DNA from: a virus
DNA length: 22,142 nt
Strand: one strand, 5' to 3'
Virus genome (UHGV): UHGV-0075672
A program made the position numbers. Below are positions 6,001 to 9,000 of the stretch, piece after piece (within the stretch, counting starts at the first letter, position 1; every line of letters starts with the position of its first letter).

Positions 6001-9000
6001 CGCTAAAAAGAAAGAGTTAGGCCTGTCGCAGGAATCATTAGCCTATGAATTAGGTGTTACCCAAAGCGCTGTTAATCAGCTAATGGCTGGCATCAACGCC
6101 ATAAATGCCAGCCACGCAGCACAGCTTGCTAAGATACTGAATGTAAAGGTCGGAGATTTCAGTCCCAGCCTGGCAAAATCTATTGCAGAAATGGCGCTCG
6201 CAATTGAAGAGCCATTAACTCGTGTCCCCGCTTACGAATATCCGTTACTCTCCTGCGTACAAGCTGGTGCATTCTCAATGGATGATATTTCGTACACCGC
6301 AAAAGATGCGATTAAATGGATCTCCACCACCACAAAAGCCAGTGACAGGTCGTTCTGGCTGGAGGTCAAGGGGCATTCAATGACCGCACCGCAGGGTGGT
6401 AAACCCAGCTTCCCTGAAGGTATGCTGATACTCGTTGACCCTGAACGGGAAATCGAGGATGGCGATTTTTGCGTGGCCCGAATGAACGGCGATGAATTTA
6501 CCTTCAAACGATTCATTCGTGAGAGCGGTAAAGCGTACCTGGAGCCGCTCAACCCACGATTCGACATGATTGAGTGTAACGAAAACTGCCAGTTTGTCGG
6601 AAAGGTCATCAAATCGCAGTGGAATGATGAGACTTTTGATTGAGCTCACAGAGTGATTTGACATCCTTCACGCCTGCAGAATGTGGAGGATGTCAAAAGC
6701 ACGTTGGCATCATCATGCCACGTAAAGAGGATTAGTTATGCTTCAAAAGCTAGACGTCGCAGACAGCGTGCGTCGCGAGCTGTCTCCCCGTACCGCGCGT
6801 AAACACAAAGCTGAGTTCGGCCAGTTCATGACGCCTTCTGGCGTGGCCCGTTTTATGGCCTCCTTGTTTCCACCGAGCACAATGAAAACTTGCCGTCTAC
6901 TGGACGCAGGCGCTGGTGTAGGCGCACTGTCTTGCGCCTTCCTCGACCGTTGGCTGGTTGGCGAGTTTGGCTTTGAGTCTGTCGAGGCAACAGCCTACGA
7001 AATCGACAAAAAGCTGTGTGGTCACCTTGCGAAGCACTTAACCGGGTACAGGAGAGTGACGCCCCGCATCATCGAAGGGGATTATATTGAGCTGGCAACC
7101 GCCGAAGGTCTACAGGATCGAGGTTATACCCATGCAATACTTAATCCGCCTTACAAGAAGATCAATAGCCAGTCAGCCCACCGGCAGGCTCTTCGCACTG
7201 TCGGTATCGAGACGGTAAATCTGTATTCCGCCTTTGTTGCACTGGCTGTAGGTGAGGTTGCACCTGGCGGGCAGATAGTGGCCATAATCCCACGTAGTTT
7301 CTGCAACGGACCGTATTACCGTCCGTTCCGTAATTTCATACTTGAGCGGGCAGCAATCCGCCATATTCATTTGTTCGAATCACGTAGCAAAGCTTTCAGG
7401 GATGACGATGTGTTGCAGGAAAATATTATCATCCGCCTGGAGCGTGGAGGCCTTCAGGAGGCTGTTACAGTCACAACTTCGACCGATGATAGCTTTTTTG
7501 ACCTGGTCACCTACGAACACCCATTTGACCAAATTGTGTACCCGGACGATTCGGAGCGGTTTATTCATGTGCCGACCACGCACGAGAAAAGCGCCATTGA
7601 GTTATCATCCGCCGTACAATGTTCGCTGGCTGATATTGGCGTGAAGGTATCGACCGGACCAATAGTTGATTTCCGACTGAAAGCTCATTTGCGCAGCATG
7701 CCCGAAGAAGGAACTGTTCCCCTGATCTACCCGAGCCATTTGAGTATGAGTAGCACTGTCTGGCCTGTGGAAGGTTTGAAGAAACCCAACGCAATCATGC
7801 GCAACGACGAGACAGAAAAGTGGCTTTACCCGAACGGTTTTTATTGTGTGGTGCGTCGTTTCTCGTCGAAGGAGGAAAAGCGCCGAGTGGTAGCAAGCGT
7901 CGTTGATCCTGCTACCTTCAGTGAGTATTCAGTGTTGGGATTTGAAAATCACATGAACGTGTTTCATGAGAACAAACATGGGTTACCCGAGGCGCTGGCC
8001 CGTGGCTTGGCCGTGTTCCTGAACACTACCGCAGTGGATAAGTATTTCCGTCGATTCAACGGGCATACACAGGTCAATGCAACCGACCTCAAGATGATTA
8101 AGTACCCAAGCCGTGACACTCTGATAGAGCTTGGCAAGTGGGCTATGCAACAAGAAACTCTCACGCAAGAACATATTGACGCTAAGCTAGGAGCTCTGAC
8201 TGCATGAACAACCAAAATGATTATATTGAGGCCGCTCAGCAAATTATAGCATCCTTAGGCCTGCCCAGAGCGCAGCAGAATGAGCGCTCTGCTTTGTGTT
8301 TGCTGGCACTCCTGAACCTCACACCGGGAAAAGCATGGGCCGACGCGGAAAATCCGCTTGTGGGCATTACACCAATCATGAATTGGGTTCGGGAGCACTA
8401 CGGCAAGGTCTACGCACCCAATACTCGTGAGACATTCCGCCGCCAGTCTATGCATCAGTTCTGCGCTGCTGGAGTAGCCCTCTACAATCCGGACAAGCCC
8501 GATCGCCCAGTGAACAGCCCGAAGGCTGTTTATCAGATCGAACCTGCTGCTCTGTCCATGCTACGCACTTTCGGCAGCCCGGCATGGCACGATAGCCTTG
8601 CAACCTATTTAGCCGAGCGTGAAACGCTGGTTACCCGCTATGCTAAGGAGCGCGAACAGAATCGTATCCCTGTTGAAATTGCTGCGGGCCAGCAAATAAC
8701 CCTCAGTCCCGGCGAGCACAGCGAACTTATCCGTGCCATAATAGAGGACTTCGCCCCACGTTTTGCTCCGGGTAGCGTGCTGGTCTATGCTGGCGACACT
8801 GGCGAAAAGTGGGGCTACTTCGACGCTCCACTGCTGGCCGGACTGGGTGTTGATGTGGATTCACACGGTAAAATGCCGGATGTGGTGCTACATTTCACGG
8901 AAAAAAACTGGCTGCTACTGGTGGAGTCTGTCACCAGTCATGGACCGGTTGATGGGAAGCGGCATGCTGAGCTTGCCAGGCTGTTTGCCGGATCAACAGC

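What the first reader, a model, noticed from the sequence alone, without database searches (positions are those of the whole stretch)
6657..6697. CTGCAG occurs only once in 22 kb, inside a 15-bp inverted repeat just upstream of the methyltransferase gene
By manual scan CTGCAG is present once (6674-6679), against roughly 5 expected for a 6-mer in 22 kb, while one-off neighbours are common (CTGCAA about 14 times, TTGCAG about 8). The single site sits at the centre of TTTGACATCCTTCAC / GTGGAGGATGTCAAA (14 of 15 positions palindromic, outer 10 bp perfect) between the cI stop and the methylase RBS. This suggests the adjacent R-M system recognises CTGCAG, has purged the site from the prophage, and keeps one copy in a structured control element, possibly a methylation-sensitive operator or a processing hairpin in the cI-M transcript.
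Basis: partly seen in the sequence, partly recalled or inferred. Interest (0 to 1): 0.75.

Follow-up and report, generated by a model that had tools for sequence, protein, structure and literature searches.

The report
Chance PstI site in post-cI hairpin
The lone CTGCAG is a single-base variant found in a minority of strains, sitting in the loop of an ordinary phage hairpin that borders the already-known EcoGIII (PstI-like) restriction-modification genes of Shiga-toxin phages, so it is not a control site kept by that system.

Summary
The raw observation holds. CTGCAG occurs once (6674-6679), in the loop of a real 15-bp inverted repeat (6657-6671 / 6683-6697) between cI and a methyltransferase gene.

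The window is the immunity region of an O104:H4-type Stx2a phage.

1. The loop site is a derived SNP (C6677). 113 of 134 E. coli genomes and 73 of 97 phage records carrying this locus read CTGAAG, including the strains where EcoGIII was characterised. Only 9 genomes read CTGCAG.
2. The palindrome is phage backbone, not part of the R-M cassette. Homology to non-phage M-R cassettes starts at 6697, the last stem base. The same stem occurs with other loops and other downstream genes. None of 75 M-R operons elsewhere has it, and only 2 have CTGCAG upstream.
3. Depletion is non-specific. 19 of 64 palindromic hexamers are equally or more depleted, and the R-M-free phage 933W has the same CTGCAG obs/exp (0.68) as R-M-bearing P13374 (0.69).

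The hairpin most likely is a read-through RNA stem-loop (no T-tract) marking the left edge of the cargo slot downstream of cI. Low interest.

The parts
5631..5870 (-). cro gene
   Evidence: Pfam Cro 4.8e-34. Annotated cro in P13374.
5930..6643 (+). cI repressor gene (HTH_3 plus Peptidase_S24)
   Evidence: Pfam. 100% identical to P13374 cI.
6644..6656 (+). Short leader after the cI stop, shared by all cI relatives whether or not they carry the palindrome
   Evidence: Downstream-of-cI comparison of 32 loci. In palindrome-less types, homology to the window ends at 6657.
6657..6697 (+). Palindromic stem-loop: arms 6657-6671 and 6683-6697, loop 6672-6682. Phage-backbone element at the left edge of the cargo slot.
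   Evidence: real, stable, non-chance. (same stem with other loops and other downstream DNA). (lies outside the R-M cassette).
6674..6679 (.). The single CTGCAG. C6677 is a lineage-specific A-to-C SNP; most relatives read CTGAAG.
6697..6737 (+). Start of the acquired cassette: relic of the last 13 codons of a serine-resolvase gene (KHVGIIMPRKED*). It contains the small hairpin 6705-6720 and the M ribosome-binding site AAAGAGGA (6725-6732).
   Evidence: Upstream alignment with non-phage cassettes. Resolvase Pfam 2.4e-47 for the upstream ORF in L140. Relic frame.
6738..8207 (+). M.EcoGIII-type N6-adenine methyltransferase gene
   Evidence: Pfam Eco57I methylase domain. PADLOC MTase_II 3.9e-248. 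99.2% identical to the P13374 M protein. Literature.
8204..9157 (+). R.EcoGIII-type (BsuBI/PstI family) restriction endonuclease gene. Its start overlaps the M stop (ATGA).
   Evidence: Pfam BsuBI_PstI_RE 2.7e-61 and its N-terminal domain 1.2e-54. SdaI structure 2ixs 2.5e-77.
6697..9165 (+). Full extent of the horizontally acquired R-M cassette (about 85% nucleotide identity to Thauera plasmid and Gallionellaceae copies)
   Evidence: blastn boundaries.
9176..9197 (.). Bidirectional intrinsic terminator forming the right edge of the cargo slot. Homology among all slot variants resumes at 9178/9179.
   Evidence: Terminator scan. Slot boundaries.

Best explanation
The window is the immunity region of an O104:H4-type Stx2a lambdoid phage. 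Downstream of cI, in the position that rexAB occupies in lambda, the phage has a cargo slot. The slot runs from 6657/6698 on the left to the terminator at 9176-9197 on the right. In this lineage the slot holds the known EcoGIII (PstI-like, CTGCAG) M-R cassette (6697-9165). The cassette was captured from a resolvase-M-R unit and still carries 13 codons of the resolvase gene.

The 41-nt palindrome is a phage-backbone element placed 14 nt after the cI stop, directly abutting the cassette junction. It has no T-tract and no promoter. The cassette appears to have kept no promoter of its own. The M-R genes are therefore most likely transcribed from the cI promoters straight through the palindrome. 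On that transcript it forms a 16-bp stem-loop whose single imperfect pair is a G.U wobble on the + strand.

My inferred role is a non-terminating intercistronic RNA hairpin. It would end, stabilise or process the cI part of the message and perhaps damp expression of the downstream cargo. It occupies the same place where relatives with opposite-strand cargo carry a true T-tract terminator.

The CTGCAG in the loop is an incidental A-to-C substitution in one sub-lineage. It has no conserved role and does not change the predicted fold. The scarcity of CTGCAG in the window reflects general avoidance of palindromic hexamers in lambdoid early regions, not action of the resident R-M.

Shown: identity of the genes, junction positions, allele frequencies and the lack of specific depletion. 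Inferred: co-transcription and the RNA-level role of the hairpin.

The confidence of 0.55 is for the whole statement. About 0.9 applies to the part that says the site is an incidental SNP in a phage-backbone hairpin and not an R-M control element. About 0.4 applies to the specific RNA-level role.
For: Identity. 99% identity to P13374, TL-2011c and PA2 across cro-cI-M-R. Pfam and PADLOC assignments. The literature reports that this Stx-phage R-M, EcoGIII, methylates and cuts CTGCAG, with 100% of sites methylated in lysogens.

SNP. The alignment shows CTGAAG in P13374, Lyz12581Vzw and F039. 9 of about 134 E. coli genomes match the window allele exactly. 113 of 134 genomes and 73 of 97 phage records match the CTGAAG allele exactly. 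Loops in the 18 IMG/VR loci plus 4 phage-record loci: 13 CTGAAG, 3 CCCTGAAG, 2 CTGCAG and 4 unrelated. Both alleles give the same MFE.

Backbone, not cassette. Non-phage cassettes align to the window only over 6697-9165. Their upstream ORF is a resolvase. PhiR12_3-type phages and L229 keep the stem but have a different loop and different downstream DNA or genes. None of 75 M-R operons elsewhere has the palindrome, and only 2 have CTGCAG within 200 bp upstream, against about 3.7 expected by chance.

Stem versus loop. 0 of 30 stem positions differ against 7 of 12 loop positions between variants A2 and B, Fisher P = 3e-5.

No promoter or terminator..

Positional analogy. cI relatives L238/L240 and L247/L248 carry T-tract terminators at the same place. 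In L238 the cargo is a convergent HicA/HicB-like pair with its own 12/12 sigma-70 promoter.

Depletion control. P13374 0.69 against 933W 0.68. In the window 19 of 64 palindromes are as depleted or more so.
Against: There is no transcript data, so co-transcription of cI-M-R and any processing or stabilising role are inferred.

There is no covariation support. Stems are identical in types A and B. The only divergent copy (L229) has three uncompensated changes in the left arm, so selection for pairing is not demonstrated.

Stem conservation could simply reflect recent common ancestry, since flanks are 92-99% identical.

The exact breakpoints at both edges of the palindrome fit a DNA-level recombination role equally well.
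Confidence: 0.55

Rival explanations
1. The resident R-M purged CTGCAG from the prophage and retains one copy in a palindromic control element. That element acts as a methylation-sensitive operator or promoter for the M-R genes, in the manner of CfrBI-type autoregulation.
For: R is a BsuBI/PstI-family enzyme. The site is unique in the window and lies just upstream of M. Regulation of some R-M systems through methylation of a cognate site in the promoter is an established precedent (own knowledge).
Against: The site is absent (CTGAAG) from 113 of 134 genomes and 73 of 97 phages carrying the same R-M, including the EcoGIII reference strains. No promoter overlaps it. The palindrome lies outside the cassette and persists without M. 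Only 2 of 75 homologous operons have any CTGCAG within 200 bp upstream. Depletion is identical in an R-M-free phage.
Confidence: 0.03
2. The palindrome is mainly a DNA-level feature. It would be a recombination hot spot or boundary sequence at which lambdoid phages exchange the cargo downstream of cI, with no dedicated RNA function.
For: Homology between variants breaks exactly at 6657 (the first stem base) in types D and E. It breaks at 6697-6702 (the last stem base) in types B and C, and again for the R-M cassette itself. Three unrelated sequences follow the same right arm. The loop is hypervariable while the arms are identical.
Against: A 41-bp palindrome is short for known palindrome-stimulated instability (own knowledge). 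The single arm mismatch is a G.U pair on the transcribed strand. Unrelated hairpins (terminators) occupy the same position in relatives, which points to a transcript-level role for this position. No recombinase is implicated, and the resolvase is only a 13-codon relic.
Confidence: 0.25
3. The palindrome is a binding site (operator) for a dimeric DNA-binding protein, for example cI, Cro or a host factor, that controls read-through into the cargo.
For: Perfectly conserved 15-bp arms with a variable spacer is also the pattern expected of a two-half-site operator.
Against: There is no sequence similarity between the arms and the cro-cI or pL regions. The half-site centres are 26-27 bp apart, about 2.5 helical turns, which puts them on opposite faces and is atypical for HTH dimers (inference). 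No C-protein or other regulator ORF lies between cI and M.
Confidence: 0.07
4. The hairpin is a weak, non-canonical transcription terminator or attenuator. Its main role would be to keep M-R (or other cargo) expression well below that of cI.
For: A strong stem (-24 kcal/mol) lies where relatives have true terminators. Limiting endonuclease dosage is a general need of R-M systems (own knowledge).
Against: No T-tract follows the stem on either strand in any of the three contexts. All CTGCAG sites are methylated in lysogens, so M is well expressed.
Confidence: 0.15

Closest known systems
EcoGIII restriction-modification system of the O104:H4 Stx2a phage (phiStx104 / P13374), a PstI/BsuBI isoschizomer
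   Same: Same genes in the same place: cro-cI-M-R is 99% identical in nucleotides, and M and R are 99-100% identical in protein. Published specificity is CTGC(m6A)G.
   Different: This window's sub-lineage has one extra CTGCAG, created by an A-to-C change in the hairpin loop upstream of M.
Lambda cI-rexA-rexB operon, and the 933W cI-stk region (exclusion or defence genes carried downstream of cI)
   Same: Cargo genes lie co-directionally between cI and a terminator in front of the pL region. In lambda such cargo is transcribed with cI in lysogens (own knowledge). EcoGIII is active in lysogens.
   Different: The cargo here is a type II R-M cassette captured from a resolvase-linked unit. A long T-tract-less hairpin sits between cI and the cargo.
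Intercistronic stem-loops in polycistronic mRNAs (T7 early RNase III sites, REP-like stabilisers)
   Same: A long, stable hairpin between two cistrons, with no T-tract, on the sense strand.
   Different: No cleavage or stability data exist. The type-A stem is only 16 bp, while types B and C reach about 22 bp. There is no covariation evidence.
R-M systems autoregulated by methylation of a cognate site in their promoter (CfrBI-type)
   Same: A cognate site lies upstream of the M gene in this one allele.
   Different: The site is not conserved, is not in a promoter, and is not part of the cassette.

Membership tests
BsuBI/PstI-type type II R-M (EcoGIII) | The endonuclease carries the BsuBI/PstI catalytic domain and the N-terminal HTH domain | tested here: met
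   PF06616 2.7e-61 and PF17728 1.2e-54. SdaI (CCTGCAGG) structure 2ixs 2.5e-77.
BsuBI/PstI-type type II R-M (EcoGIII) | An adjacent N6-adenine methyltransferase nearly identical to M.EcoGIII | tested here: met
   99.2% amino-acid identity to the P13374 M protein. PADLOC MTase_II 3.9e-248.
BsuBI/PstI-type type II R-M (EcoGIII) | Cuts and methylates CTGCAG | not testable with these tools
   Taken from the literature on near-identical proteins.
Methylation-sensitive promoter or operator control of an R-M system (CfrBI-like) | The cognate site is conserved in the control region among carriers of the system | tested here: not met
   CTGAAG in 113 of 134 genomes and 73 of 97 phages. Only 2 of 75 homologous operons have CTGCAG within 200 bp upstream.
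Methylation-sensitive promoter or operator control of an R-M system (CfrBI-like) | The site overlaps the -35 or -10 element of the system's promoter | tested here: not met
   No sigma-70-like promoter at 9/12 or better anywhere in 5930-6737. The best 8/12 candidates have poor -10 elements.
C-protein-controlled R-M | A small C gene and a C-box palindrome upstream of the C/R genes | tested here: not met
   No ORF lies between cI and M. The upstream HTH protein is a 237-aa S24-peptidase repressor. The palindrome is unrelated to the OR and OL regions.
Intrinsic (Rho-independent) terminator | A stable stem-loop followed directly by a T-tract | tested here: not met
   The stem is present. The tail is AAAAGCACGTTGG, and the site is not reported by the terminator scan on either strand.
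RNase III processing site or mRNA-stabilising intercistronic hairpin | About two turns of dsRNA on the sense transcript, with cleavage or 3'-end protection in vivo | tested here: inconclusive
   16-bp stem in type A and about 22 bp in types B and C. In vivo cleavage or stability is not testable here. No covariation is available.
Restriction-site avoidance driven by the resident R-M | The cognate site is more depleted than other palindromes and more than in relatives lacking the R-M | tested here: not met
   Rank 19 of 64 in the window. P13374 0.69 against 933W 0.68.

The most novel reading that the evidence does not exclude
The T-tract-less palindrome may be a dedicated 'gate' element of a defence-cargo slot downstream of cI. 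At the RNA level it would let the repressor promoters read into promoter-less cargo while insulating cI mRNA. At the DNA level its two edges would serve as preferred crossover points at which lambdoid phages swap cargo: the R-M cassette, an unknown 341-aa protein, or the deleted remnant. That would make it a small cassette-exchange signal, analogous in logic to integron attC hairpins.
Probability: 0.12. Interest if true: 0.5.

Novelty: already known. Interest (0 to 1): 0.12.

Why it matters
It matters little. The biologically important part, a PstI-like R-M system carried by Stx2a phages next to cI, is published as EcoGIII. The supposed 'retained regulatory site' is a neutral-looking SNP.

Two modest by-products may be of use. 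First, the nucleotide-exact boundaries of the captured cassette are now mapped, including a 13-codon resolvase relic that points to its origin in resolvase-linked mobile units. Second, the analysis defines a cargo slot downstream of cI whose left edge is a conserved hairpin. Both could help people who map defence islands in lambdoid prophages.

Tried and rejected
- Promoter reading. TTGACA occurs in both arms, but no acceptable -10 lies at 15-19 bp on either strand.
- Terminator reading. There is no T-tract on either strand.
- cI/Cro operator copy. The arms have no similarity to the OR or pL regions.
- Cassette terminal repeat. The arm sequence does not recur at the other end of the cassette or elsewhere in the window. 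The only other match has one mismatch, at 15369.
- Known RNA family. Rfam gave only sub-threshold generic hairpin (miRNA-precursor) hits.
- Single-arm search in IMG/VR. It returned more than 100 unrelated environmental contigs, which are chance 15-mer matches. The one with a cI homologue (L101) has the arm about 3.5 kb away from that gene.
- Tracing the PhiR12_3-specific DNA right of the palindrome. It has no other source in the phage collection.
- Reading Fang et al. 2012. The paper is not held in the library, so EcoGIII facts are cited through papers that quote it.
- Covariation analysis of the stem. This was not possible, because types A and B have identical stems and L229 differs by uncompensated changes only.
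Full report
OBSERVATION

CTGCAG occurs once in the 22,142-bp window, at 6674-6679. It lies in the 11-nt spacer of an inverted repeat, TTTGACATCCTTCAC (6657-6671) / GTGGAGGATGTCAAA (6683-6697), with 14 of 15 positions complementary. The repeat sits between the stop of a cI-type repressor gene (5930-6643) and the start of a methyltransferase gene (6738).

The repeat is clearly non-random. It is the only one of its class in the window: 15-nt arms, at most 1 mismatch, loop 3-20. 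I saw about 0.07 per dinucleotide-shuffled window. As RNA it folds into a 16-bp stem at -24.4 kcal/mol, z = -5.4. The single imperfect position is a U.G pair on the + strand.

The depletion is much weaker evidence. Expectation is 4.9-5.7 under order-0 to order-4 models and 5.58 +/- 2.45 in shuffles. That gives a nominal Poisson P of 0.02-0.04. However, 16 of the 64 palindromic hexamers are absent from the window, and 19 of 64 are as depleted as CTGCAG or more so. All 64 together run at obs/exp 0.67.

WHAT THE LOCUS IS

The region cro-cI-M-R is 99% identical to O104:H4-type Stx2a phages such as P13374, TL-2011c, PA2, VT2phi_272 and Ss-VASD.
- R (8204-9157) carries both BsuBI/PstI endonuclease domains, at 2.7e-61 and 1.2e-54. 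It matches the SdaI structure at 2.5e-77.
- M (6738-8207) is an N6-adenine methyltransferase.

This is the published EcoGIII system. Papers citing Fang et al. 2012 state that it is a PstI-like system that methylates and cleaves CTGCAG, and that 100% of CTGCAG sites are methylated in lysogens. Its presence in the early region of PST2-type O157 phages is also noted.

TEST 1: IS THE LOOP SITE CONSERVED?

It is not. In P13374, Lyz12581Vzw and F039 the stem is identical but the loop reads CTGAAG. The counts are below.

| Collection | CTGAAG allele | CTGCAG allele |
|---|---|---|
| Complete E. coli genomes with the locus (134) | 113 | 9 |
| Phage records (97) | 73 | 0 |
| 22 fetched loci (18 IMG/VR contigs + 4 phage records) | 13, plus 3 CCCTGAAG | 2 |

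- C227-11, the EcoGIII reference strain, carries CTGAAG.
- The remaining 24 phage records carry the variant with one extra C.
- 4 of the 22 fetched loci have an unrelated loop, GTCCTTTGGGGC.
- CTGAAG is present in two diverged lineages (M proteins 97% identical, different cI N-termini), so it is the older state. C6677 is a derived SNP.
- Both alleles give the same predicted fold energy.

TEST 2: DOES THE PALINDROME BELONG TO THE R-M SYSTEM?

It does not. I fetched 80 M homologues (63-88% identity) from many phyla, and nearly all have R directly downstream.
- None has this palindrome.
- Only 2 of 75 with enough upstream sequence have any CTGCAG within 200 bp upstream of M, against about 3.7 expected by chance.

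The closest non-phage copies come from a Thauera aromatica plasmid, Gallionellaceae, Aquabacterium, Pseudomonas and Serratia. They align to the window at about 79-85% nucleotide identity over 6697-9165 only. In those genomes, the sequence homologous to window 6697-6737 is the 3' end of a serine-resolvase gene (PF00239 2.4e-47). The window retains 13 of its codons (KHVGIIMPRKED*), including a small hairpin at 6705-6720 and the M ribosome-binding site. The cassette junction therefore falls on the last base of the palindrome's right arm, and the palindrome is on the phage side.

Conversely, PhiR12_3-type phages lack M and keep only R residues 214-317. They still retain both arms unchanged, with a different loop and unrelated DNA to the right. 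Locus L229 has the right arm and that same loop, followed by a different gene of 341 aa with no Pfam or PADLOC hit.

TEST 3: IS CTGCAG PURGED BY THE RESIDENT R-M?

It is not. The comparison is below.

| Phage | R-M | CTGCAG sites | Expected | obs/exp | Early-region sites |
|---|---|---|---|---|---|
| P13374 | yes | 12 | 17.3 | 0.69 | 1 in 23.7 kb |
| 933W | no | 12 | 17.6 | 0.68 | 2 in 21.0 kb |

Both early regions show the same general shortage of palindromic hexamers, with median obs/exp about 0.46-0.51. This is the well-known broad palindrome avoidance of phage genomes (own knowledge), not a footprint of EcoGIII.

WHAT THE PALINDROME IS

I compared 32 loci encoding cI relatives. All share the cI 3' end and a 13-nt leader, then diverge at one of two points:
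- exactly at 6657, in types that lack the palindrome; or
- exactly at 6697-6702, in types that have it.

All regain homology at 9178/9179, the bidirectional terminator at 9176-9197. The interval is therefore a cargo slot in the position of lambda rexAB and 933W stk (own knowledge).

Relatives without the palindrome carry a different hairpin at the same place, this time followed by a T-tract:
- TAACCTtgcaaggAGGTTA-TTTTATTT in L238;
- GCCCG...CGGGC-TTTTTT in L247.

In L238 the cargo is a convergent HicA/HicB-like pair with its own perfect sigma-70 promoter. Where the cargo is co-directional and has no recognisable promoter (the R-M cassette, and the L229 gene), the post-cI hairpin has no T-tract. 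No promoter-like site lies between the start of cI and M. Only 41 nt of the cassette's native upstream DNA survive. Yet M is fully active in lysogens. The simplest reading is that M-R are transcribed from the cI promoters through the hairpin.

Between variants A2 and B the stem shows 0 of 30 differences and the loop 7 of 12, Fisher P = 3e-5. In types B and C the loop self-pairs, extending the helix to about 22 bp with a tetraloop.

I therefore favour a non-terminating intercistronic RNA stem-loop of the cI operon. It would end, stabilise or process cI mRNA, and may damp cargo expression. It also marks the left border of the slot.

This functional step is inference. There are no transcript data and no covariation, and the one divergent copy (L229) has three uncompensated changes. 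The exact breakpoints at both edges fit a DNA-level recombination hot spot about as well.

REJECTED READINGS

- Promoter: TTGACA in both arms but no usable -10.
- Intrinsic terminator: no T-tract.
- cI/Cro operator: no similarity to OR or OL.
- Cassette terminal repeat: the arm is not repeated elsewhere.
- Known RNA family: none.

VERDICT

The unique CTGCAG, however, is a lineage-specific single-base change in the loop of an ordinary phage hairpin, next to an already characterised R-M system. There is no evidence for site purging by that system or for a methylation-sensing control element. Interest is low. The only mildly new items are the mapped cassette boundaries, with the resolvase relic, and the hairpin-bordered cargo slot.

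Noticed in passing
window 6697-6737, and loci L139-L145, L165, L166: The EcoGIII cassette still carries the last 13 codons (KHVGIIMPRKED*) of a serine-resolvase gene. That gene sits directly upstream of M in about 79-85% identical copies on a Thauera aromatica plasmid and in Gallionellaceae, Aquabacterium, Pseudomonas and Serratia. This points to capture from a resolvase-linked mobile unit shared across proteobacterial classes.
   Followed up: partly
window 6705-6720: A small hairpin, TGGCAT-catc-ATGCCA, lies just upstream of the M ribosome-binding site. The resolvase-linked relatives read GGCGT-catc-ACGCC, so two changes keep the pairing. Herbaspirillum locus L156 has a 13-bp version. It lies in (former) coding sequence, VGV(I)I(T/M)P, so structure and coding constraint cannot be separated.
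   Followed up: partly
loci L229 3311-4333; L234 3396-4551; L238 3621-4274: The slot between cI and the terminator holds other cargo in cI relatives. L229 has a 341-aa protein with no Pfam or PADLOC hit. L234 has a 79-aa protein plus a 300-aa ClpP-like SDH-type protease. L238 has a convergent HicA/HicB-like pair with a perfect TTGACA-17-TATAAT promoter.
   Followed up: partly
window 10532-10620 (+), 19659-19736 (+), 19762-19846 (+): Rfam gathering-level hits: sRNA-Xcc1 upstream of ORF 10661-11299, and isrK plus C4 antisense RNA upstream of ORF 19870-20577. The two ORF regions are paralogous (11012-11268 resembles 20295-20528). They look like two antirepressor modules, each with its own small-RNA leader.
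   Followed up: no
window 396-570 (-): Rfam sok antitoxin RNA at 118 bits, indicating a hok/sok-type toxin-antitoxin locus at the left end of the window.
   Followed up: no
whole window; P13374 1-20919: 16 of 64 palindromic hexamers are absent from the window, for example GGCGCC, GCCGGC, GTCGAC and GGATCC, each with 4-7 expected. In P13374 the first 20.9 kb has no CTGCAG at all while the late region has 11 sites, about as expected. The early regions of P13374 and of R-M-free 933W are similarly palindrome-poor.
   Followed up: partly
window 9408-9595: A short stretch downstream of the terminator, near the predicted pL-like promoter at 9300-9328, is 93-95% identical to phi80 and HK225, where it is annotated only as 'other'. 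It is a shared early-left control segment among otherwise different lambdoid phages.
   Followed up: no
loci L001/L002 4608-5458: In the second immunity group (Lyz12581Vzw, F039) an extra roughly 1-kb module, a SocA-family protein plus a hypothetical protein, is inserted between R and the pL region. The slot can therefore hold stacked cargo.
   Followed up: no
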